Shown: one piece after another, positions 1,761 through 9,274 of the stretch
Layout: each line of letters opens with the position of its first letter
Numbering within the stretch: position 1 is the first letter of the stretch
IMG/VR virus record: IMGVR_UViG_3300015186_000011
Coordinates: 1-26,051 of that record
Reading direction: 5' to 3' (one strand)
Origin: a virus
Lineage: Duplodnaviria; Heunggongvirae; Uroviricota; Caudoviricetes
DNA length: 26,051 bases
Made by a program: the position numbers and the translations under genes
The notes under the pieces: generated by a model
Database searches by the model: none
Told to the model about the DNA's origin: nothing
The model's input: only the letters and a program-made list of their open reading frames with translations

Positions 1761-1914
1761 ATGTGTAAAGCGCACCTATTCTATGGTGGGCTGTGTGGGG
1801 GCACCGAAAGGTGCGCCGGGTTCCTTTGTAGCCGGTAAGACCAACTCTGCACAGTTCACCACCATCTGATTGGTCTCAGCGGTGGTGATTAACCTAACTA
1901 CAAAGGTGATCGCC

Positions 1915-2607
1915 ATGAATACCAAACCTTCCATCTTTTCCTTTGAGTCATCCTGCCAGATCCGTATGTTCATGATTGACGGAGAACCTTGGTTTGTCAC
2001 CAAAGATGTGTGCAATGCTTTGAATATTGATGTTACACAAGCGAGAAAACTTGATAAAAAAGGCTGGAACAAAAAGGGGCTGTATTCAATACAGACCCCT
2101 GGTGGAATACAAGAACTATCCATCGTTTCAGAATCAGGTCTCTACATCCTTATTCTGCGTTGCAAAGAGGCAATGACTGAGGGAACGAGAGCATTCAGAT
2201 TTCTTGAATGGGTTACAGGTGAGGTTCTTCCTCAGATCCGCCGCACCGGAAGTTACATTAAAAACTCGCTCCCGCAGGAAGAACGCATAAAGATGGTTGC
2301 CGACCAGGTAGCCAACGCCACGGCGTCAGCAGTGATGCAGGCGATGAAGATAGAGAACAAAACCTACAGTGCCCCACTGAAGCCCGGCTACCGCAGCCTG
2401 ATTCATTCGCCGTCTGGTGTTCTCGGCCTGACGGAGAACTCACTGCTGATGAATTTGCTGAACAAGTTACAGGAAGACGGGCACGATGTATCGGGCGCGG
2501 CAGCGGAGCTGACCACCATGTTCTGCTACATCGTCGGTGTGAGCAAATGCCTGCGTGATATCCAGACGCACGCGGAGTACATCAATGACAAGGCAGGGTT
2601 CTTCTGA
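1915..2607 (+). CDS. Phage antirepressor with BRO-N N-terminal domain and the shared antirepressor C-terminal domain
   Basis: ATG at 1915 preceded by AAGGTGA. N-terminus MNTKPSIFSFES..QIRMFMIDGEPWFVTKDVCNAL is a typical BRO-N signature. The C-terminal ~80 aa are near-identical to the C-terminus of the 3858..4802 product. Confidence 0.75.
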   Translation: MNTKPSIFSFESSCQIRMFMIDGEPWFVTKDVCNALNIDVTQARKLDKKGWNKKGLYSIQTPGGIQELSIVSESGLYILILRCKEAMTEGTRAFRFLEWVTGEVLPQIRRTGSYIKNSLPQEERIKMVADQVANATASAVMQAMKIENKTYSAPLKPGYRSLIHSPSGVLGLTENSLLMNLLNKLQEDGHDVSGAAAELTTMFCYIVGVSKCLRDIQTHAEYINDKAGFF

Positions 2608-2631
2608 CGGGCGGCGGCACATGGATGTGCC
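2373..2631. repeat. Left arm of a ~260-bp inverted repeat (partner 3834..4092), ~95% identical at DNA level
   Basis: Reverse complement of 3834-4092 matches 2373-2631 with only a few mismatches. The match spans the antirepressor C-terminal domain coding sequence and ~24 bp beyond the stop codons (cgggcggcggcaca[t/g]ggatgtgc). Confidence 0.7.
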
Positions 2632-2728
2632 TACAATTATCAATAATTGTTTACACTCGTTGCAGTTAAAAGCATTATACTCATGTTTAAAATTACCCGA
2701 TTGGTAAAGTCGATTGGTTGAGGTTCAT

Positions 2729-3055
2729 ATGAGCAGAAGATATGTCAAGGAGCTGGCTATAGAGTCTGGCACCCCTTTGGGTATCGTTCCTGGCTCCAAC
2801 TATGCCAAGGCTTTAAACCGAGACTCTGTCGTCAAAGTTATATCAAGAGACATGAATATGGTCGGAGACGATCTCAGACGGTCAGAAAATCGTGTTTATG
2901 CTGAATATATAGTAAAGAACGGAAAAAAAATTGCAGCGCCTGCTGGCGGAAAATGGGCAATAGTGACAGGGAAAAACTCAAATGCAAGAGGAAAACCAGA
3001 AGCTAAAGGAATGTCCTTCGACAAATATGCAAAAATCTATTGGGCAACCAAGTGA
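2729..3055 (+). CDS. Hypothetical protein (108 aa), first gene of a plus-strand cassette
   Basis: ATG at 2729 with GAGGT 5 nt upstream. Product MSRRYVKELAIESGTPLGIVPGSNYAKALNRD... has no family I can place. A CAATTATCAATAATTG inverted repeat lies upstream at 2634-2649. Confidence 0.45.
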   Translation: MSRRYVKELAIESGTPLGIVPGSNYAKALNRDSVVKVISRDMNMVGDDLRRSENRVYAEYIVKNGKKIAAPAGGKWAIVTGKNSNARGKPEAKGMSFDKYAKIYWATK

Positions 3056-3530
3056 TAACGAAGAAACTGAGTTCGAGGAAGTTGAGGAAGGGCTAAGTAA
3101 CGAGATCATTCAACACCCAGATGCCTTCACAAGAGTTCTTGATCGCCCTGAAATTCAGGAGATAGTTGTCGCTCACCATGCGTTTCAGGGTCCGCTTCCT
3201 CCCCCCTATCTGCTTCGCGGGTATCAGGATATTTTACCTGATGCCCCCGAACGCATCTTCCAGCTGACGGAGAAGGAGTTTGCTCACCGCCAGAAAATGG
3301 AGGAAAAGGCACTTGACGGGGCTATTAATAGAGATAAACGTGGGCAGTGGTTTGGCCTGAGTGCAACTATTTTTACAGTAGCTTGTGCAACATTATTAGG
3401 TTTAACAGGTCATGAAGTTCTAGCTGGCACAGTGATCGGTACAGTTGTTGCAGTGGCTGGTATTTTTGTTCTCAGACAAAAACCGAGCTTAAAGAAGAAC
3501 GCTGAAGATAAAACACCAGAAGAAGAGTAA
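2982..3530 (+). CDS. DUF2335-like predicted membrane protein (acidic N-terminal region, two C-terminal TM helices)
   Basis: Motif GPLPPPYLLRGYQDILPDAPERIFQLTEKEFAHRQKMEEKALDGAINRDKRGQWFG followed by hydrophobic segments matches my recollection of DUF2335. Start is ambiguous (ATG at 2982 or 3027); both overlap the upstream ORF in another frame. Confidence 0.55.
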   Translation: MQEENQKLKECPSTNMQKSIGQPSDNEETEFEEVEEGLSNEIIQHPDAFTRVLDRPEIQEIVVAHHAFQGPLPPPYLLRGYQDILPDAPERIFQLTEKEFAHRQKMEEKALDGAINRDKRGQWFGLSATIFTVACATLLGLTGHEVLAGTVIGTVVAVAGIFVLRQKPSLKKNAEDKTPEEE

Positions 3531-3553
3531 GCCCGCGACGCGGGCTTTTTTGT
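3531..3553 (+). terminator. Rho-independent terminator
   Basis: GCCCG-cgacg-CGGGC stem-loop followed by TTTTTTGT, immediately after the stop of the DUF2335-like gene. Confidence 0.7.
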
Positions 3554-3623
3554 GGGCGAAACAAAAGTCAGTGCTACACTCATTGACGCCACATTGAGGT
3601 GGTTTATAGATGGAAATTTCACA

Positions 3624-3785
3624 ATGAAAAAAGCATTTGCTGCACTGTTCGTTTTGTTGTCTCTGGTAGCTTCAACTCAGGCCTTTGCCGGTCGTTGTCA
3701 GCACGACAGCGACACTGCTGCTGACGGCTCCCGCTGCGGTGGGCGTTCTGCGGATTCCCGCCCGGGCGGCGGTGGCATTCGTTAA
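3624..3785 (+). CDS. Small putative secreted peptide (53 aa) with N-terminal signal peptide
   Basis: MKKAFAALFVLLSLVASTQAFA has signal-peptide character with an AxA cleavage motif. The mature part is Gly/Arg/Asp-rich with 2 Cys. RBS is weak and the gene is short, so confidence is low. Confidence 0.4.
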   Translation: MKKAFAALFVLLSLVASTQAFAGRCQHDSDTAADGSRCGGRSADSRPGGGGIR

Positions 3786-3807
3786 AAACAAGGCCGCGAA
3801 AGCGGCC

Positions 3808-3833: not shown

Positions 3834-4092
3834 TGCACATCCCTGTGCCGCCGCCCGTCAGAAGAACCCTGCCTTGTCGTTGATGTACTCCGCGTGCGTC
3901 TGGATATCACGCAGGCATTTGCTCACACCAACGATGTAACAGAACATGGTGGTCAGCTCCGCCGCCGCGCCCGATACATCGTGCCCGTCTTCCTGTAACT
4001 GGTTCAGCAGATTCATCAGCAGTGAGTTCTCCGTCAGACCGAGAACACCAGACGGAGAATGAATCAGACTGCGGTAGCCGGGCTTCAATGGA
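3834..4092. repeat. Right arm of the ~260-bp inverted repeat (partner 2373..2631)
   Basis: See left arm; covers the 3' end of the minus-strand antirepressor gene plus ~24 bp downstream. Confidence 0.7.
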
Positions 4093-4802
4093 TAACCATA
4101 ACATTTTGTCTGTGTTTTAATTGCCTCACGAAGCGCATCTAACATCTTGACTGCCACTTCATCATTCTCTGATGCAGATCCAGCAGGGAGATACTCCCCT
4201 TCAAGCGGAACCCGAGCAACAAGAGACAACGCTTCGGCAAATTGATCTTCACCAATTTCTTTGTACGAACAGCCAAAATGAGATTTCAGTGACGACCACA
4301 TGGTGATCATCGCCTTAGCCTGTTTTTCTTTTGGCAGAGACTGACCGCGACTCATGACGAGTTGTTTAATGGCTTCCTGCTGTTCAGTTGTTATTTTACC
4401 CGGCAACGCCTTTTTAGCTTTGCGTGGGTTAACCACATGGCCTTTAGTCCAGTACTCGTAGAGCACATCGTCACACTCTTCCTGATACTGGATTACCTTG
4501 TCGCGGATTTCAGGGCGGACTTTGTTAGGGCTGATGGTTTGCAGCCAACCTGCAAGTTTGCGTAAAGCAAGACAGATAACCAGACGACGCTGAGTATCAC
4601 CGGGGAGCTGAATGGTCATTTCGACCATGCAGCTCTTAAAGCGTTGTTGCAACTTGCGGAACTGCGTTTTCCAGTCCAGCCCCATACCTTCAACGACTGG
4701 TTTCATTGGGGTGTATGGTTCGCCGTTATGATTGACAACATAAAGCTCTGCGCCGTGGAATGGCACGTTGATAGTAGATACCGCTGTTGCTATACTCGTC
4801 AT
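3858..4802 (-). CDS. ant: P22 Ant-like antirepressor (AntA / P22_AR_N-type N-terminal domain plus shared C-terminal domain)
   Basis: 314-aa ORF with AGGAA RBS. N-terminus ...GAELYVVNHNGEPYTPMKPVVEGMGLDWKTQFRKL is antirepressor N-domain-like. It sits immediately downstream of an Arc-like gene, as in P22 immI. Confidence 0.75.
   Translation of the reverse strand: MTSIATAVSTINVPFHGAELYVVNHNGEPYTPMKPVVEGMGLDWKTQFRKLQQRFKSCMVEMTIQLPGDTQRRLVICLALRKLAGWLQTISPNKVRPEIRDKVIQYQEECDDVLYEYWTKGHVVNPRKAKKALPGKITTEQQEAIKQLVMSRGQSLPKEKQAKAMITMWSSLKSHFGCSYKEIGEDQFAEALSLVARVPLEGEYLPAGSASENDEVAVKMLDALREAIKTQTKCYGYPLKPGYRSLIHSPSGVLGLTENSLLMNLLNQLQEDGHDVSGAAAELTTMFCYIVGVSKCLRDIQTHAEYINDKAGFF
4768..4796 (+). promoter_or_regulatory. 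Sigma70-like promoter (TTGATA-17 bp-TATACT) firing antisense across the ant translation start
   Basis: -35 TTGATA 4768-4773, 17-bp spacer, -10 TATACT 4791-4796. Predicted start near 4803, directly opposite the ant start codon (4800-4802) and RBS. Confidence 0.5.
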
Positions 4803-4877
4803 GTCGTTAATTCCTATACGTAGTTTTACGATACTGAAGCCCTGACGGTCTGGCCACCGTGGGGCTTCGCTGTTTTA
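4803..4877 (+). ncRNA. sar: Candidate sar-like antisense small RNA (~75 nt) complementary to the ant ribosome-binding region
   Basis: A promoter at 4768-4796 and an intrinsic terminator on the same strand (nested hairpin GAAGCCC..ACGGT-ctggcc-ACCGT..GGGCTTC at 4836-4868, then GCTGTTTTAT) bracket a ~75-nt transcript in the arc-ant intercistronic region. This mirrors the sar antisense RNA of P22 immI. Confidence 0.45.
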
Positions 4878-5042
4878 TGCCACGCTATTCTTCTCACCAG
4901 TGAGTCCATACACTTTCCTCAGCTGATAGATAATCTCTGTATTGAACTTTCGGCATTCTTTTTCGCCATTTCTTTCAATAGCTAACTTCACATCGTCCGG
5001 AAAACGAACTCGTCGTTGACACATCTCTTTTGCTTTTTGCAT
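4875..5042 (-). CDS. arc: Arc-like ribbon-helix-helix repressor (55 aa)
   Basis: ATG at 5040-5042 with a strong TAAGGAGA Shine-Dalgarno (the track ORF starts at an upstream GTG). Product MQKAKEMCQRRVRFPDDVKLAIERNGEKECRKFNTEIIYQLRKVYG resembles P22 Arc (..FNLRWPREVLDLVRKVAEENGRSVNSEIYQRV..). It lies upstream of ant and divergent from an Mnt-like gene. Confidence 0.65.
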   Translation of the reverse strand: MQKAKEMCQRRVRFPDDVKLAIERNGEKECRKFNTEIIYQLRKVYGLTGEKNSVA

Positions 5043-5056
5043 TTCATATCTCCTTA

Positions 5057-5071
5057 GCCCCACCGTGGGGC
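5057..5071. promoter_or_regulatory. Palindromic operator candidate GCCCCACCGTGGGGC (Mnt-operator-like core CCACCGTGG) at the predicted +1 of the arc-ant promoter
   Basis: Near-perfect palindrome between the predicted Pant -10 and the arc RBS. The core matches, as I recall it, the P22 mnt operator core CCACGGTGG (reverse complement). The 12-mer CCACCGTGGGGC recurs at 4854-4865. Confidence 0.5.
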
Positions 5072-5077
5072 AAAATA

Positions 5078-5125
5078 ATTGTCACACCGTGCGTCATTGA
5101 TGTCAAGCACACGGTGAGGCATACT
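5078..5125. promoter_or_regulatory. Divergent overlapping promoters: Pant-like (minus strand) and Pmnt-like (plus strand)
   Basis: Minus strand: -35 TTGACA (plus coordinates 5101-5106), 17 bp, extended -10 TGtGACAAT (5078-5083). Plus strand: -35 TTGATG 5097-5102, 17 bp, -10 CATACT 5120-5125. Inverted CACCGTG / CACGGTG half-sites at 5085-5091 and 5110-5116. Confidence 0.5.
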
Positions 5126-5162
5126 TCAATCATTGCAAGTAACTCAATATTTGGTGAAGAAC

Positions 5163-5594
5163 ATGAGCAGAGAAGATCCACAACTAAGGATCAGACTTCC
5201 CGTTGAAGTAAAAGAAAAAATAGAAATTTCTGCAAAAGCCAATAAGCGATCAATGAACGCTGAAATAGTACAACGTCTTGACACCAGCTTTCTGAAAGAT
5301 ATTCATGAAGATGACGTAATTTCTGCTTATGAAGCAAAAATTATTGCAAACAATGCACGACATGAAATATCAAATATTATTTTCAAAAGAACCTTTAATG
5401 AAATTAATAAGAAAATAACACTTGGACATACAAGTTTTTATATAAACCTTAATGACCTTGAACTGGAATCACTTGCAGATAATGATTACCAGATCATCTT
5501 TGAAAAAACATTTAATAAGCTCAATGAACTAGGTTACATCATCTGTGAAAACTCATGGGATGCAGATGGTTTTGGAATTGAAATACCTGAATAG
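5163..5594 (+). CDS. mnt: Mnt-like ribbon-helix-helix repressor with an AT-rich C-terminal extension (143 aa)
   Basis: ATG at 5163 (track ORF starts at a TTG at 5133). N-terminus MSREDPQLRIRLPVEVKEKIEISAKANKRSMNAEIVQRL closely resembles P22 Mnt (MARDDPHFNFRMPMEVREKLKFRAEANGRSMNSELLQIV). The C-terminal ~95 aa have no match I recognise and the DNA turns markedly AT-rich. Confidence 0.7.
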   Translation: MSREDPQLRIRLPVEVKEKIEISAKANKRSMNAEIVQRLDTSFLKDIHEDDVISAYEAKIIANNARHEISNIIFKRTFNEINKKITLGHTSFYINLNDLELESLADNDYQIIFEKTFNKLNELGYIICENSWDADGFGIEIPE

Positions 5595-5607
5595 GAAGAA
5601 CAAAAGG

Positions 5608-5630
5608 CGTGTACATATTACACGTCTTTA
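5608..5630 (+). terminator. Hairpin CGTGTA-catat-TACACG followed by a T-rich tract; putative terminator or operator
   Basis: 6-bp inverted repeat with TCTTTAAT downstream, between the Mnt-like gene and the membrane-protein gene. Confidence 0.3.
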
Positions 5631-5684
5631 ATACAATTGAAAAACGCCACATTACTGATGTATGTTACAACAAGGAGCGATATT

Positions 5685-6248
5685 TTGAAAACCATATCTA
5701 TATTAAAGGTTGCATTAGGCGTCGCTATTATTTTGACTCTCTCAATATTGTTTTATTTTTACCACAAAAAAACTGCTATTGCTCTTGATGGTCACGCGGC
5801 AAACTCATTTTTCTCAGAGTACATAGTGCCGCTATCAGGAAGCGGTATAACAAATAAATATACTGACTATGACATCAAATATGGAATTGATGATGGGGAG
5901 ACTATTGTATTACATGTAATCATTAAAAACCTAATGACAGTAAATAAAAATACAGACTTCAACGATAAAAATACAATACATCACAACAACAGCAAAACAT
6001 TAATTTCTTATAGTAGCAACATCTATACGGATAAATACCTAAAATACATATCAGAAGATACAATAAAAGAAACCCGCGAAAAGTTAAAAAACATATATTG
6101 TGCATCCGGCAGTTTTCACAAATTATCGCCGCAAGAGCGTTTATTCTACGAAGCAAGAAAACAACGTAAGTCAATAATATTACATTATTATGCTGATTCA
6201 GGGGAGTCACTCATATTTAATATTGGGGTTTCCCCTGAATCATGCTAA
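5685..6248 (+). CDS. AT-rich moron: membrane-anchored protein of unknown function (~188 aa), candidate superinfection-exclusion or abortive-infection factor
   Basis: TTG start at 5685 with AGGAG 8 nt upstream (alternatives: ATG 5658, track TTG 5637). N-terminal hydrophobic helix ISILKVALGVAIILTLSILFYFY, then an Asn/Lys/Tyr-rich domain. GC content is far below the flanking phage genes. Confidence 0.5.
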   Translation: MKTISILKVALGVAIILTLSILFYFYHKKTAIALDGHAANSFFSEYIVPLSGSGITNKYTDYDIKYGIDDGETIVLHVIIKNLMTVNKNTDFNDKNTIHHNNSKTLISYSSNIYTDKYLKYISEDTIKETREKLKNIYCASGSFHKLSPQERLFYEARKQRKSIILHYYADSGESLIFNIGVSPESC

Positions 6249-6259
6249 AGGTGTTTAAC

Positions 6260-9200
6260 TCACCGCATCACCGGATCCACCTGGTTTATTAGTGGCGCAA
6301 TCCAGAACAGGTTATTGCCGGGTATCAGGGTTCGGACATTATGCACAATACGATCACCGGCATCACCATTCAACACTCCTGCGGTCACATCAATGATGCT
6401 ATCCGCAAGACCAAATGACGGTCCGAATAGAGATCCTACGAATCCACGACTGGCATACCTAGACTGTGTGCCAGTGCCAAATAAAGCCCCCAGCCCAACA
6501 GCACCACCAGTAGCCTTTTCAGCCATGTTGTTATATTCCATCAATGGCCCAAGAATACCGGATCTATCTATACCCTCAAGCACCAGCTTCTCTGGTGACC
6601 AGTCAACATTTTTCCCTTTCGATGCTTCTTTAAGCGCATAGACCAGTGAGCCAAGAGCAATCTGAAATGCAGTGCCATAATAAAATTGCGCAGTTCCTTC
6701 CTGTAACCCACCAAGTAGCGCACGGTTGTATGAAGCCGTTGTGAATGATTTAAACTGAAATATCGTTCGCCCCATTGGAGTACTCGCCCATAAAGGTGTG
6801 TCACCAATACCGGGGGTGATGATAGTGTTATTAACGTCTTTCAGAACCGCTGACTGGAATACTCCGGCAACGTACTGATCGTCCCATTTATCAAAGTTAC
6901 CAATGTGCCATCCATCAATTACCTCACCATGTTTCTCGAACTCACTGCGAATACGCGCAGCCATATTGTCGTTGATACCGAGTTTTGCCATGCGACGTGC
7001 AGAAAACGCACCAGACAAAATACCGTCTGACGTGAGCATTCCGTTCATGGATTTGTTTATGTCATTAAATCGATCCATGAGTGTCAGCTTGCCGAAGGCA
7101 TCAGTAATTCGCTCCATTCCTGCTTCGACTGCTGTTGTCCTGGAAGAACTGTCAACAAGATCACCAATTGCACGAGAACGTGAATGTAGTACAGTTTCCA
7201 ATCCAATCCCCATCTTCAACATCTCTTCTTTGCTGGCCTTAAATGCCGGTGATTGGGATATCTGAGAAGCATAGCCTTTCATGGTGTTACGGAAACCATT
7301 AACCATAACCCCTCTGGCCAGATCTGGAATAGCTGATACTGTCATTCCACCGAGTTTGGTCGTGAAGTTCACATCCCGCAGAAAAGCGCCAGCACGAACA
7401 AAAAACGAAGACGGGTCATCAGGCATACCATATGTACCAACAAGACGATCGCGTAATGCTGTTATGTCTCTGAGATCATTTGCTCTTGATTTTGAAAGTC
7501 TGGACTGTTCTTTCCGTAATTCCTTTTCGTACTTTCGCATTAATGAATCGAGTTTACCCTGAGGAACAACTTCACCATTGCTCTCATAACGTGCTTTCAG
7601 ATTTGCCACACTTTCGTCATATTTCGCCTTTATTTTTTCAGGCACTTCCCGTAACAGACTGTCATATTCGTCCTCAATTAATTGCAGACGCTCAGTCATA
7701 GTTCGTTTGCCAAATGTTCTCGTCAACTCAATTTCTGCTGCCGCTTCACGGATATGACGTTGCAGCACGTAATTCACATCACTTTCAAGATAATCCCTGA
7801 TAAGACTATCAGGAACATTTAATGTTCTTTCTTTCGTACTACCTGCGGCTTTTACAGAAAATACGCTGACAAAATCCTGTGGAACCTTAGCACCAGTAAT
7901 TTTATTAATTACGATATCCGCTGCAATTTCAGCATCCTCAGGATCCAGTGTTTTATTGCCTCTCGACCACCAGTCAACCAAAATACGTCGAAATTTATCG
8001 CGTTCACTGATTATTTTTCCAACTTTATATATACGTGGAAAATAGCTTGCCTGGCCTAATGCTTTCAGTTCTTCATCTGGCGGTAATAAACCAAGCTTTT
8101 GCATTTCAACCTTCACCCGATTTAATACAGTTCGCATCGCCTGCGCCGTTTCCTGAACAACAGGATTAGCATGCACATCACCGCTTCGCATAGCATTCCC
8201 AACCTGCTGACGAAATGAATCAAAACTCATGTCGCCACCATCAGCTTTATACTTTGCGTATGCCTGTTTATTTCCGACAACAACAGCAGCTTCTTCACGC
8301 TGCCATCCACGTGTACGGGTTTCTACAGCTACCGGTGTTTCAATCCCCCTTTCATTTCCTTTAAGGGTGAAATTATTTTCGGCTAACTCCAGCGTTGTTT
8401 TTCGCACTGTCTTGGACGGAGACTCCATTAACCTTGTCAAAGGAGTAAGATAGCTCCCTGCTTTCCATGCAGCCTTTCCAACCCACCCACCGGAAACAGG
8501 GGTTAAATCATCCAGAGTCGCTGTATCAATTTTCATAGCACCAACACTACCACCATCAGAAAGCGAAGCGGCAGCCCTGTCAGTCGCTGATGTAATGCTC
8601 ATATTATCAAGAGCATCAGCAACCTCACGCGTGGCTGCAGCCCGGACGGATGGCGAAAGCGCAACACCAGCACTGGCAAACACGCCGCTCATCATCGCAC
8701 CCGCTGCAACGTGAGCGGCACTTTCACCCCATGAGCGTGTTATTTGCTGATTATTCAGCACAACCTCGCTTAATGCTGTACCGGCAGCACCAATCGCAAT
8801 CTGTGAGCCAATACGCGCCAGTGCCCCTCCTTGAGCACCGGGGATAAACATTGACGCAACAGTAACCGGATCCATTCCCGCAGCAATACTGGCAAGAGTT
8901 CCAACTACGCCAGCATCAGACAATAAACGTCTGTCTTCATTTTCATCATCTATCTGCTGCTTAATCCACGCCGTTTCCTCTGGCGATCGGGAATCTGCAA
9001 ATTTCGCCCCCCAGTATTCATAACCGTGCAACTCATTTTTATCAGCATATGGGTTATAACCTTCGACCGGTTCAAACTGTCTGGCTGGTCGGAAAAAACC
9101 AGCCAGAATATTGTTCTGTCGCATTGCAGCCCCCCATACGGAAGGCTCCGGTGGCAATGGCTCAGGATTAGCCCCTTCCGGAAGGGCAACATCAAACCCA

Positions 9201-9274
9201 GTTTGTTCCGGCAAAACATTACCTGACGGGATCAGTCCGTTATTAAGATCTTCAGCTTGTGCATAAACTGGCAT
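6260..9274 (-). CDS. Large internal virion / ejection protein (1004 aa), T7 gp16-position analogue
   Basis: Last and largest ORF of the coupled structural operon; its start overlaps the upstream stop (TAATG at 9274). Ala/Gly-rich with coiled-coil segments. Assignment is by size and synteny only. Confidence 0.55.
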   Translation of the reverse strand: MPVYAQAEDLNNGLIPSGNVLPEQTGFDVALPEGANPEPLPPEPSVWGAAMRQNNILAGFFRPARQFEPVEGYNPYADKNELHGYEYWGAKFADSRSPEETAWIKQQIDDENEDRRLLSDAGVVGTLASIAAGMDPVTVASMFIPGAQGGALARIGSQIAIGAAGTALSEVVLNNQQITRSWGESAAHVAAGAMMSGVFASAGVALSPSVRAAATREVADALDNMSITSATDRAAASLSDGGSVGAMKIDTATLDDLTPVSGGWVGKAAWKAGSYLTPLTRLMESPSKTVRKTTLELAENNFTLKGNERGIETPVAVETRTRGWQREEAAVVVGNKQAYAKYKADGGDMSFDSFRQQVGNAMRSGDVHANPVVQETAQAMRTVLNRVKVEMQKLGLLPPDEELKALGQASYFPRIYKVGKIISERDKFRRILVDWWSRGNKTLDPEDAEIAADIVINKITGAKVPQDFVSVFSVKAAGSTKERTLNVPDSLIRDYLESDVNYVLQRHIREAAAEIELTRTFGKRTMTERLQLIEDEYDSLLREVPEKIKAKYDESVANLKARYESNGEVVPQGKLDSLMRKYEKELRKEQSRLSKSRANDLRDITALRDRLVGTYGMPDDPSSFFVRAGAFLRDVNFTTKLGGMTVSAIPDLARGVMVNGFRNTMKGYASQISQSPAFKASKEEMLKMGIGLETVLHSRSRAIGDLVDSSSRTTAVEAGMERITDAFGKLTLMDRFNDINKSMNGMLTSDGILSGAFSARRMAKLGINDNMAARIRSEFEKHGEVIDGWHIGNFDKWDDQYVAGVFQSAVLKDVNNTIITPGIGDTPLWASTPMGRTIFQFKSFTTASYNRALLGGLQEGTAQFYYGTAFQIALGSLVYALKEASKGKNVDWSPEKLVLEGIDRSGILGPLMEYNNMAEKATGGAVGLGALFGTGTQSRYASRGFVGSLFGPSFGLADSIIDVTAGVLNGDAGDRIVHNVRTLIPGNNLFWIAPLINQVDPVMR

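What the first reader, a model, noticed from the sequence alone, without database searches (positions are those of the whole stretch)
5300..6248. Strongly AT-rich moron: Mnt-like repressor extension plus a membrane-anchored protein
GC content drops sharply from about 5300 to 6250, which indicates foreign origin. The island covers the 3' part of the Mnt-like gene (an extra ~95-aa C-terminal domain absent from P22 Mnt) and a ~188-aa protein with an N-terminal transmembrane anchor and an Asn/Lys/Tyr-rich domain. The position next to the immunity region corresponds to where P22 carries sieA, so it is a candidate superinfection-exclusion or abortive-infection gene of an undescribed family. The start codon is ambiguous (TTG with strong SD at 5685 versus ATG at 5658).
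Basis: partly seen in the sequence, partly recalled or inferred. Interest (0 to 1): 0.65.

Follow-up and report, generated by a model that had tools for sequence, protein, structure and literature searches.

The report
Periplasmic pilotin-fold moron beside ejection genes
An AT-rich stretch of an E. coli prophage holds two independent genes: an ordinary long-form Mnt repressor, and an uncharacterised envelope protein with a pilotin-like fold that always sits tail-to-tail with the phage's DNA-ejection gene and is a credible but untested candidate for blocking infection by related phages.

Summary
Bases 5300-6248 are 31.6% GC against 48.4% for the window, the lowest stretch of that size. The window is a TL-2011b-like temperate podovirus prophage with T7-type core genes and a P22-type immI module (ant, sar RNA, arc, mnt-like).

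The island holds two unrelated units.

1. The 143-aa Mnt-like protein is not an island-made extension. It belongs to a conserved 142-150-aa two-domain family (more than 260 clusters) that accompanies arc/ant in other prophages without orf187.

In 14 tabulated diverged loci (28-52% identity), the homologue is convergent with the last ejection-protein gene, with stops -28 to +35 nt apart, and is always AT-rich.

Best reading (confidence about 0.4): a prophage-expressed periplasmic protein that blocks DNA delivery by related phages. This is functionally analogous to SieA but structurally new. Abortive infection is not supported, and function is untested.

The parts
5685..6248 (+). orf187: 187-aa protein, TTG start, PHROG 8033. 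It has a signal anchor or signal peptide followed by a periplasmic AspS/PA3611-fold domain.
5685..5768 (+). Residues 1-28: N-terminal basic residues plus an 18-22-residue hydrophobic segment (signal anchor, or a signal peptide with a possible AIA|LD cleavage site).
   Evidence: Kyte-Doolittle peak of 2.47 and a single hydrophobic segment. Homologues carry classical cleavable signal peptides such as ...AFA|S.
5934..6020 (+). Residues 84-112: Asn-rich, low-confidence insertion that is absent from short-form homologues. One allele has an 8-codon in-frame gap in its alignment (positions 87-94); P0001 lacks 7 residues here.
   Evidence: Alignment A2. pLDDT below 50 for residues 87-101. Allele variation.
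6099..6101 (+). Cys139 codon. The residue is invariant and lies at the end of helix alpha2.
   Evidence: Invariant in 14 of 14 sequences. The position corresponds to the AspS Cys74 (alpha2) of the conserved disulfide.
6243..6245 (+). Cys187 codon. This is the C-terminal residue, it is invariant, and it follows a short C-terminal helix.
   Evidence: Invariant in 14 of 14 sequences. It corresponds to AspS Cys111 in alpha4.
5672..5677 (+). Shine-Dalgarno sequence AAGGAG, 7 nt upstream of the TTG start.
   Evidence: Sequence. Conserved in the indel allele.
5603..5637 (+). Inverted repeat AAAGGCGTGTA/TACACGTCTTT, a possible weak terminator of mnt-like, overlapping a promoter-like site TGTACA-16-TACAAT. 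The -10 element reads TATAAT in the 97% allele.
   Evidence: Promoter-like sites are not more frequent than in shuffled sequence, so this part is inconclusive.
5163..5594 (+). Long-form Mnt-like repressor, 143 aa: RHH at residues 1-46 plus a conserved C-terminal domain of about 95 aa with no recognised fold.
   Evidence: Pfam Arc 1.1e-14 and phrog_1388 5.1e-72. PDB 1mnt 3.5e-7. Family alignment A3 has 74% mean column identity.
5056..5070 (.). Perfect 15-bp palindrome GCCCCACCGTGGGGC between the Pant-like promoter and the arc SD. It shares the CCAC(C/G)GTGG core of the P22 mnt operator, so it is a putative Mnt-like operator.
   Evidence: and the annotated P22 operator position. Binding is inferred, not shown.
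5078..5106 (-). Pant-like sigma-70 promoter (TTGACA-17-GACAAT with TG) that would drive arc and ant.
   Evidence: This is a consensus match only.
4875..5042 (-). arc-like gene, 55 aa.
   Evidence: TL-2011b annotation 'Arc-like repressor'. phrog_228 at 1.8e-5.
4804..4871 (+). sar antisense RNA.
   Evidence: Rfam RF00262, 44.8 bits against a gathering score of 43, E 3.5e-7, full-length match 1-68. A promoter-like site lies at 4768-4796.
3858..4802 (-). ant antirepressor, 314 aa.
   Evidence: Pfam P22_AR_N 2.9e-45 and phrog_524 8.7e-79.
6260..9274 (-). gp16-like internal virion (ejection) protein, 1004 aa. It is convergent with orf187, with 11 nt between the two stop codons.
   Evidence: phrog_342 'internal virion protein' 6.2e-210. 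Its neighbours are an SLT-domain 930-aa protein and a T7_gp14-family protein. The convergent synteny is conserved in all diverged loci examined.

Best explanation
The AT-rich stretch contains two independent genetic units that are merely adjacent.

(A) The first unit is the maintenance repressor of a P22-type immI module (ant, sar, arc, mnt). It is a long-form Mnt whose RHH domain most likely binds the palindrome GCCCCACCGTGGGGC downstream of the ant promoter. Its conserved C-terminal domain of about 95 aa probably replaces the oligomerisation tail of P22 Mnt.

(B) The second unit, orf187, is an autonomous, reverse-oriented moron fixed tail-to-tail against the last ejection-protein gene of TL-2011b-like podoviruses with T7-type core genes. 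Its product is exported. An N-terminal signal anchor (a cleavable signal peptide in some homologues) places a roughly 155-residue domain in the periplasm. That domain is stabilised by a Cys139-Cys187 disulfide and has the AspS/PA3611 pilotin fold. In pilotins this fold grips a short C-terminal segment (the S-domain) of a secretin.

The most likely function is prophage-expressed superinfection exclusion. The tethered periplasmic domain would bind a periplasm-exposed segment of the incoming phage's gp14/gp15/gp16-like ejection proteins, or a host envelope partner they need, and so prevent assembly of the DNA conduit. This makes it a functional analogue of P22 SieA, built on an unrelated fold and located in the periplasm rather than within the membrane.

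Shown: gene structure, start codon, family, synteny and composition.
Predicted: export and fold.
Inferred: the disulfide, expression from the prophage, and the exclusion mechanism.
For: Export and periplasmic location:
- The protein has a single N-terminal hydrophobic segment after basic residues.
- Homologues carry canonical cleavable signal peptides, for example MKKLIPLLLIFPFIAFA|SP.
- Two cysteines are invariant in all 14 family members.

Fold:
- The AF2 model has pLDDT 80 and pTM 0.71. The single-sequence run gave nearly the same secondary-structure elements, lacking only the short strand 32-35 and the 105-121 elements that the alignment model adds.
- The element order a1-b1-b2-b3-a2-a3-b4-b5-a4 and the placement of the two Cys at a2 and at the C-terminal helix match the published AspS/PA3611 description, including its conserved disulfide (PMC3542185).

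Synteny:
- In all loci examined where the flank is present, homologues at 28-52% identity are convergent with a gp16-like gene (42-82% identity). In the 14 tabulated, the stops lie -28 to +35 nt apart. The hosts include Providencia, Proteus-type and Superficieibacter, plus IMG/VR contigs.

Autonomy:
- The gene is always on the strand opposite the late genes. It is either divergent from its upstream neighbour or preceded by a strong terminator.

Slot analogy:
- The order and orientations are the same as P22 16/sieA/mnt/arc/ant.
- P22 SieA blocks injection, and escape mutations map to the ejection proteins (PMC10883804).
- Prophages with a 97%-identical gp16-like gene carry a different N-terminally anchored 175-aa protein (phrog_21690) in the same slot.

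Selection:
- The gene is intact in 20 of 20 E. coli copies. Its pN/pS is 0.54, against 0.13 for the adjacent gp16-like gene.

Mnt-like unit:
Against: - No phenotype, expression or localisation data exist for any member of the family.
- The fold match is moderate (Foldseek E about 0.13, TM 0.5-0.6 on the target) and rests on a model built from only 14 sequences.
- There is no sequence-level support: no member of the family hits any pilotin Pfam family, and hhalign against E. coli AspS/YghG gives probability below 1%.
- Unlike AspS, the protein has no lipobox.
- The gp16-like C-terminus is essentially identical in prophages with and without orf187, so there is no sign of co-variation with the proposed target.
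- Promoter-like sites upstream are not above chance.
- A pilotin fold could equally point to a host secretin as the target.
- Membrane topology from the charge balance of the E. coli form alone is only weakly decided (N-flank +3 against C-flank about +1).
Confidence: 0.4

Rival explanations
1. orf187 is a lysogenic-conversion factor aimed at the host. In this reading it is a pilotin mimic that binds the S-domain of a host secretin (for example the T2SS-beta GspD, whose natural pilotin is AspS/YghG) or another envelope protein. It would then alter secretion, piliation or envelope properties of the lysogen, and would not act on incoming phages.
For: The best structural matches are the pilotins AspS/EpsS and PA3611. 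E. coli itself encodes the AspS pilotin YghG next to a T2SS. The island occurs in pathogenic lineages, including STEC, ETEC and APEC.
Against: The gene is tied to the ejection-protein gene of the phage over large divergence, not to any host secretion system. It has no lipobox, so it cannot pilot anything to the outer membrane. There is no sequence similarity to pilotins. Hosts such as Providencia carry the family irrespective of T2SS-beta, but that was not tested here.
Confidence: 0.15
2. orf187 serves the phage's own lytic cycle in the periplasm. For example, it could restrain the SLT transglycosylase of released core proteins or protect the infected cell from lysis from without. It would then not be a prophage-expressed defence.
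For: It lies immediately next to the core genes, one of which carries an SLT domain. T4 Sp, which inhibits the gp5 lysozyme, sets a precedent (own knowledge, not tested here).
Against: The gene is on the opposite strand from the late operon in every locus and is transcriptionally isolated. Prophages with the same core genes do without it.
Confidence: 0.12
3. orf187 is an abortive-infection or toxic effector, as the first reader offered as an alternative.
For: There is a weak PADLOC hit to ThsB (TIR-like), E 0.005 and 15 bits. The gene sits in a moron slot.
Against: The domain is predicted to be periplasmic and disulfide-bonded. The fold searches return no TIR or enzyme fold. The ThsB hit is far below any meaningful score, and no Pfam domain is found.
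Confidence: 0.04
4. orf187 is a secreted or surface-released factor that acts on the animal host, as reported for P. aeruginosa PA3611.
For: PA3611 is the top structural match. It has been reported as a secreted protein that affects epithelial cells (PMC8860233).
Against: The E. coli form has a long hydrophobic anchor rather than a typical cleavable signal. The family occurs in phages of environmental and commensal Enterobacterales. The synteny with ejection genes would be left unexplained.
Confidence: 0.05
5. orf187 is a decaying, non-functional AT-rich insert that happens to keep an open reading frame.
For: The GC content is very low, and H-NS silencing is likely (inference). pN/pS is relatively high at 0.54.
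Against: Homologues down to 28% identity keep 16 invariant residues, including both Cys. The gene is intact in 20 of 20 E. coli copies, and the only length change is in frame. The position is conserved in 14 diverged loci.
Confidence: 0.04

Closest known systems
P22 SieA (superinfection exclusion, PHROG 7745)
   Same: Both occupy the same genomic slot with the same orientation: convergent with the last ejection-protein gene, downstream of mnt, and next to arc/ant. Both are small (164 against 187 aa), membrane-associated, AT-rich (33.7% against 32.4% GC) and transcribed against the late operon. SieA blocks DNA injection, and escape mutations map to ejection proteins gp16/gp20 (PMC10883804).
   Different: There is no sequence relationship: BLASTP E 0.15, and orf187 gives no hit to phrog_7745. 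SieA has three TM helices and a cytoplasmic FxRYPxEAxxFNK motif. orf187 has one N-terminal hydrophobic segment, no such motif, and a globular disulfide-bearing periplasmic domain. The associated ejection proteins are T7-type (gp14/15/16-like), not P22 gp7/20/16.
AspS/GspS-beta (EpsS, YghG) T2SS pilotins and P. aeruginosa PA3611
   Different: There is no detectable sequence similarity. orf187 is not a lipoprotein. It carries a 29-residue Asn-rich insertion and is phage-encoded, linked to ejection genes rather than to a secretin operon. Secretin binding has not been tested.
P22 Mnt repressor
   Same: The N-terminal RHH is homologous (1mnt 3.5e-7; residues 3-45 align with Mnt residues 2-44). It is divergent from arc-ant with a sar RNA between them. 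A palindrome with the CCAC(C/G)GTGG core sits at the equivalent place.
   Different: It is 143 aa rather than the 83 codons of P22 mnt (252-nt gene). The coiled-coil tetramerisation tail (own knowledge) is replaced by a conserved domain of about 95 residues with no PDB or Pfam match. The protein belongs to its own widespread family (phrog_1388).
Other single-pass or periplasmic exclusion proteins: HK97 gp15, T4 Imm and Sp (own knowledge, not tested here)
   Same: These are small envelope proteins encoded by morons or early genes that stop DNA entry of the same phage type after adsorption. HK97 gp15 is likewise a moron embedded among virion genes.
   Different: No similarity was sought or found here, and nothing comparable appeared in BFVD. 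None of them is known to have a pilotin fold.

Membership tests
P22 SieA family (PHROG 7745) | Detectable sequence similarity to SieA types A-C | tested here: not met
   BLASTP against P22 SieA gives E 0.15 over 42 hydrophobic residues. orf187 hits only phrog_8033, while P22 SieA hits phrog_7745.
P22 SieA family (PHROG 7745) | Three (types B and C: four) transmembrane helices and the conserved motif FxRYPxEAxxFNK | tested here: not met
   orf187 has one hydrophobic segment (residues 1-28) and no motif. The same script finds several segments and the motif in P22 SieA. The defining features are taken from PMC10883804.
P22 SieA family (PHROG 7745) | Location between the last ejection-protein gene and the immI/tailspike region, transcribed against the late genes | tested here: met
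P22 SieA family (PHROG 7745) | Excludes related phages at the DNA-injection step | not testable with these tools
   This needs plating, adsorption and DNA-entry assays.
AspS/PA3611 fold (T2SS-beta pilotin-like) | Alpha/beta fold with order a1-b1-b2-b3-a2-a3-b4-b5-a4 | tested here: met
AspS/PA3611 fold (T2SS-beta pilotin-like) | Conserved disulfide linking a2 to the C-terminal helix | tested here: inconclusive
   Cys139 (end of a2) and Cys187 (after the C-terminal helix) are invariant in 14 of 14 sequences, and they are placed as in AspS Cys74-Cys111.
AspS/PA3611 fold (T2SS-beta pilotin-like) | Sequence or profile similarity to the pilotin family | tested here: not met
   None of the 14 members hits a pilotin Pfam family at E up to 10. 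hhalign of the family profile against E. coli YghG gives probability 0.7% and E 0.08.
AspS/PA3611 fold (T2SS-beta pilotin-like) | Lipoprotein signal (lipobox Cys) for outer-membrane targeting (true pilotins only) | tested here: not met
   None of the 14 members has a canonical lipobox. One subgroup has an invariant Cys in the signal region, but with a bulky -1 residue.
AspS/PA3611 fold (T2SS-beta pilotin-like) | Binds the secretin S-domain | not testable with these tools
Arc/Mnt ribbon-helix-helix repressors (Pfam PF03869) | N-terminal RHH domain above the family threshold | tested here: met
   54.5 bits against a cutoff of 20.4, E 1.1e-14. PDB 1mnt 3.5e-7.
Arc/Mnt ribbon-helix-helix repressors (Pfam PF03869) | Mnt-type context: divergent from arc-ant, with an operator palindrome at the ant promoter | tested here: met
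   The gene order is confirmed. The palindrome GCCCCACCGTGGGGC at 5056-5070 lies downstream of a Pant-like promoter and shares its core with the P22 mnt operator. Binding itself is untested.
Arc/Mnt ribbon-helix-helix repressors (Pfam PF03869) | Short coiled-coil C-terminal tetramerisation tail as in P22 Mnt | tested here: not met
   It is replaced by a conserved domain of about 95 residues.
sar antisense RNA (Rfam RF00262) | Covariance-model score above the gathering threshold, located between arc and ant on the antisense strand | tested here: met
   44.8 bits against 43, full-length match at 4804-4871 (+).
Moron (autonomous prophage-expressed insert) | Deviant composition, opposite strand, own promoter and terminator, present or absent among otherwise near-identical phages | tested here: inconclusive
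   Composition, strand and presence/absence are met. A homologue is preceded by a strong terminator. Promoter predictions are not above chance, and expression is untested.
Thoeris ThsB (TIR-like) | Significant profile match and TIR fold | tested here: not met

The most novel reading that the evidence does not exclude
A temperate podovirus has recruited the secretin-pilotin recognition fold (AspS/PA3611) as a membrane-tethered or soluble periplasmic decoy. The decoy captures a terminal segment of T7-type ejection proteins (gp14/15/16-like) and so aborts trans-envelope conduit assembly. If so, this would be a previously undescribed family and mechanism of superinfection exclusion. Its gene would be kept tail-to-tail with the gene for its target across Enterobacterales phages.
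Probability: 0.2. Interest if true: 0.7.

Novelty: new variant of a known kind. Interest (0 to 1): 0.5.

Why it matters
How prophages block DNA injection by relatives is understood for very few systems. P22 SieA was only dissected in 2024, and nothing equivalent is described for temperate podoviruses with T7-type internal core proteins.

This small family offers a clean, testable candidate. It is a single gene with a predicted soluble periplasmic domain, a recognisable peptide-binding fold, two diagnostic cysteines, and an obvious set of candidate targets encoded next door.

If the candidate is confirmed, it would do three things:
- add a new structural class to exclusion proteins;
- provide a probe for the periplasmic stage of T7-type ejectosome assembly;
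- explain part of the phage-resistance pattern of the STEC, ETEC and APEC strains that carry this prophage.

The negative results also matter for annotation. The long Mnt is a normal family member, not a fusion, and AT-richness here is a property of the slot rather than a mark of recent import.

Tried and rejected
- **SieA homology.** Rejected.
- **ThsB/TIR.** The PADLOC hit (E 0.005, 15 bits) is rejected because the fold searches do not support it.
- **Imm42 and others.** Single-member Pfam hits, ignored.
- **Spanin.** Rejected: the domain is globular alpha/beta, the gene lies far from the lysis cassette, and the lysis genes are separate in the Providencia loci.
- **Lipoprotein or true pilotin.** Rejected: no lipobox.
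- **'Island fused a domain onto Mnt'.** Rejected.
- **Co-variation of orf187 with the gp16-like C-terminus.** No signal. The C-terminus is the same with and without the gene.
- **Promoter scans** of the window and three homologous loci. None was above shuffled expectation.
- **BFVD viral structure library.** No match with E of 0.001 or better.
- **afdb50 library.** Not available.
- **The search for related loci with the full family alignment.** Failed for lack of a conserved stretch. The genome-contig scan with P0006 found nothing.
- **pN/pS for mnt-like (3.25).** This value is an artefact of the frameshifted TL-2011b allele and is disregarded.
- **Literature.** Searches found no paper on this family or on pilotin-fold exclusion proteins.
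Full report
**1. The observation**

The compositional trough is real and is the most extreme in the window. Bases 5300-6248 are 31.6% GC against 48.4% overall. The lowest of all 949-nt windows starts at 5241, about 3.9 SD below the mean. The trough begins near 5150, so it covers the whole mnt-like gene rather than only its 3' part. It ends abruptly at 6250-6260, where the convergent 1004-aa gene stops.

Two ORFs fill it: 5163-5594 (+), 143 aa, and 5685-6248 (+), 187 aa.

**2. Context**

The segment is 99.9% identical to Escherichia phage TL-2011b and occurs in 36 of 5426 complete E. coli genomes, always on the chromosome.

To the right, on the minus strand, lie a 1004-aa internal virion protein (phrog_342), a 930-aa SLT-domain protein and a T7_gp14-family protein. 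Together these form a T7-type ejection/core set.

To the left lies a complete P22-type immI module:
- ant (P22_AR_N, 2.9e-45);
- a sar antisense RNA (Rfam RF00262, 44.8 bits, above the gathering score, at 4804-4871);
- arc;
- a Pant-like promoter on the minus strand;
- a perfect palindrome, GCCCCACCGTGGGGC, at 5056-5070 that shares the CCAC(C/G)GTGG core of the P22 mnt operator and sits at the equivalent place.

The gene order and orientations match P22's 16 / sieA / orf59a / mnt / arc / ant / 9.

**3. The Mnt-like gene is ordinary**

Its first 46 residues are an Arc/Mnt RHH (Pfam 54.5 bits against a cutoff of 20.4; 1mnt 3.5e-7). The extra residues, about 95 of them, are not an island-made extension.

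The full-length protein belongs to a family of at least 262 clusters of 142-150 aa. These show 58-69% identity over about 100% of the length, across Citrobacter, Enterobacter, Yersinia, Proteus, Klebsiella, Salmonella and others. Mean column identity in a 25-member alignment is 74%. The family is phrog_1388.

In Enterobacter siphovirus prophages the same protein sits divergent from an arc-like gene and a Bro-N/P22_AR_C antirepressor, with no orf187 homologue nearby. The C-terminal domain has no PDB or Pfam match. I infer, without a test, that it takes over the oligomerisation role of the short tail of P22 Mnt.

**4. orf187: gene model**

A 97%-identical allele has a 4-nt insertion between ATG-5658 and TTG-5685. 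The insertion puts the ATG out of frame but preserves AAGGAG-N7-TTG. PGAP and PHROG 8033 use the same 187-aa form, so the TTG is the start.

The gene is intact in 20 of 20 E. coli copies. The only length change is an in-frame deletion in an Asn-rich loop (an 8-codon gap in the alignment; P0001 lacks 7 residues). Its pN/pS is 0.54 against 0.13 for the neighbouring gp16-like gene. It is therefore under purifying selection but evolves faster than its neighbours.

**5. orf187: family**

No Pfam, NCBIfam or credible PADLOC family matches. An exhaustive HMMER search of 1.84 billion representatives found only 16 proteins, and a profile search of 5.8 billion found 11. The family is small.

Members are 150-195 aa. 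In the 14-member alignment, 16 columns are invariant, including Y46, P49, Y62, Y138-C139, Y168-Y169 and the C-terminal C187.

All members begin with basic residues followed by a hydrophobic stretch. Several have textbook cleavable signal peptides, such as ...TFA|AT and ...AFA|SP. The E. coli form has a longer segment of 18-22 residues that looks like a signal anchor.

An exported domain with two invariant cysteines points to a periplasmic, disulfide-bonded protein. This is inferred, not shown.

**6. orf187: fold**

AlphaFold2 run with the 14-sequence alignment gave pLDDT 80 and pTM 0.71. The single-sequence run gave nearly the same secondary-structure elements, lacking only the short strand 32-35 and the 105-121 elements that the alignment model adds.

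The published description of AspS/PA3611 gives the order a1, b1-b3, a2, a3, b4-b5, a4, with a conserved disulfide tying a2 to the C-terminal helix (PMC3542185). The element order of the model matches this. So do the positions of Cys139, at the end of a2, and Cys187, after the C-terminal turn.

At the sequence level there is no support. None of the family hits a pilotin Pfam family, and hhalign against E. coli YghG/AspS gives a probability below 1%. The family also lacks a canonical lipobox. I therefore describe it as AspS/PA3611-fold, not as a pilotin.

**7. orf187: conserved position**

This is the strongest new evidence. The homologue lies convergent with a gp16-like gene (42-82% identical to the window's) in every locus examined where the flank is present:
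- Providencia and Proteus-type prophages;
- metagenomic contigs;
- Superficieibacter;
- a further IMG/VR group.

These homologues are 28-52% identical to orf187. In the 14 loci tabulated, the two stop codons lie -28 to +35 nt apart. Two read-through protein predictions independently show the same adjacency.

No Mnt-like gene accompanies the homologue in any of these loci.

The gene is always on the strand opposite the late genes. It is either divergent from its upstream neighbour or, in L007, preceded by a 10-bp-stem terminator. It must therefore have its own promoter, although simple promoter scans are not above chance.

Every homologue is 5-17 GC points below its phage, as is P22 sieA (33.7% against 49.9% for gene 16).

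**8. The slot is exchangeable**

E. coli prophages whose gp16-like protein is 97% identical, and virtually identical at the C-terminus, carry an unrelated 175-aa protein in the same slot. That protein also has an N-terminal transmembrane helix and low GC (35.4%), and it belongs to phrog_21690. These prophages have neither arc nor mnt.

This finding fits a locus dedicated to small envelope proteins. It also means there is no visible co-variation between orf187 and its presumed target.

**9. Interpretation**

orf187 is not a SieA homologue. BLASTP gives E 0.15, it falls in a different PHROG, it has one hydrophobic segment rather than three TM helices, and it lacks the FxRYPxEAxxFNK motif. It does, however, share SieA's slot, orientation, size, composition and envelope location.

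[quoted passage not shown] The most economical reading is that orf187 is a functional analogue for T7-type ejection machinery. A periplasmic domain, tethered or free and built on a fold that in pilotins grips a terminal peptide of a secretin, would bind an exposed segment of the incoming gp14/15/16-like proteins, or a host partner, and stop conduit assembly. I give this reading about 0.4.

The main rival, at 0.15, is a pilotin mimic that acts on a host secretin. Lesser rivals are a role in the phage's own lytic cycle (0.12), an effect on the animal host as reported for PA3611 (0.05), abortive infection (0.04) and a decaying insert (0.04).

**10. Novelty and score**

The kind of element is known: an AT-rich moron encoding an envelope protein at the end of the ejection operon, probably for exclusion. 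The protein family, its predicted fold and its periplasmic mode are not described anywhere in the literature I could search.

I rate it a new variant of a known kind, with interest 0.5. The Mnt-like part on its own is ordinary.

Noticed in passing
window 4804-4871 (+): A full-length sar antisense RNA (Rfam RF00262, 44.8 bits against a gathering score of 43) lies between arc and ant. A promoter-like site (TTGATA-17-TATACT with TG) lies at 4768-4796, inside the start of ant. The immI module of this non-P22 podovirus therefore keeps the P22 antisense control.
   Followed up: partly
window 5056-5070, 4854-4865, 5085-5091, 5110-5116: The motif CCACCGTGGGGC occurs twice: once as the perfect palindrome GCCCCACCGTGGGGC upstream of arc, and once inside the sar terminator hairpin. 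Half-sites CACCGTG and CACGGTG flank the -35 of the Pant-like promoter. The core equals that of the P22 mnt operator (GTCCACGGTGGAC).
   Followed up: partly
L001 8155-8496 and L038 (phage TL-2011b reference genome) versus window 5163-5594: The TL-2011b record has a 1-nt indel near codon 9-10 of the mnt-like gene, so the gene is annotated as a 113-aa hypothetical protein. The window and nearly all the other IMG/VR copies (L022-L037, where the gene is complete) encode the intact 143-aa protein. This is either a sequencing error or an immI-defective isolate.
   Followed up: partly
L013 and L014 4448-4975 (+), E. coli strains MS 196-1 and A_5: Prophages with a 97%-identical gp16-like gene carry a different 175-aa protein in the orf187 slot. 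It has an N-terminal TM helix, belongs to phrog_21690 (unknown function) and is 35.4% GC. These prophages lack arc and mnt and have an inverted ant fragment.
   Followed up: partly
window 6266-6310; L015 4001-4045 (ST131 and about 35 other E. coli genomes): A 45-bp stretch from the 3' coding end of the gp16-like gene, which includes a small hairpin ACCGGATCCACCTGGT, is 100% conserved as an intergenic sequence in a different prophage. That prophage's gp16-like (DUF919) gene is only 42% identical. There the stretch lies between a 98-aa two-TM protein (phrog_21905) and a 282-aa gene. It looks like a mosaic boundary or recombination sequence.
   Followed up: no
window 5934-6020 (orf187 residues 84-112): An Asn-rich 29-residue insertion is present only in the E. 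coli/P0006 subgroup. Its pLDDT is below 50, and there is an in-frame deletion allele (P0001/L037; P0001 lacks 7 residues). It is a variable surface loop on the pilotin-like fold. Other allelic substitutions cluster in the juxtamembrane linker (residues 27-36) and at 129-132.
   Followed up: partly
family subgroup A7 (P0011-P0016), alignment column of Cys14: One subgroup of orf187 homologues has an invariant third cysteine inside the signal/anchor segment (pattern LCxG). The -1 residue is bulky, so this is not a canonical lipobox. Its role is unexplained; possibilities are an atypical lipidation site or an intermolecular disulfide.
   Followed up: no
L003 7352-7879 (-), Providencia prophage: Directly upstream of and divergent from the orf187 homologue lies another 175-aa protein with a classical signal peptide (MKYFFLMLLFVSSICFG|Y). 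It has no PHROG or Pfam match. It is a second secreted cargo protein at the same locus.
   Followed up: no
window 1870-3800: The stretch between the tail-fibre gene and ant is a further cargo zone. It holds a Bro-N protein (1870-2607), a DUF2335 membrane protein (2982-3530; the corresponding TL-2011b gene is labelled a YafO-family toxin in RefSeq) and a small ORF annotated in TL-2011b as a 'transmembrane anchored protein' (about 3620-3785).
   Followed up: no
L040, L042, L044 (IMG/VR contigs): In one group of related phages, the orf187 homologue is a soluble form with a cleavable signal peptide. It is the lone reverse-oriented gene wedged between the gp16-like gene and ORFs that look like the small and large terminase genes (judged from the sequence only, not searched against any family). 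The gap to the gp16-like stop codon is 1 nt.
   Followed up: partly
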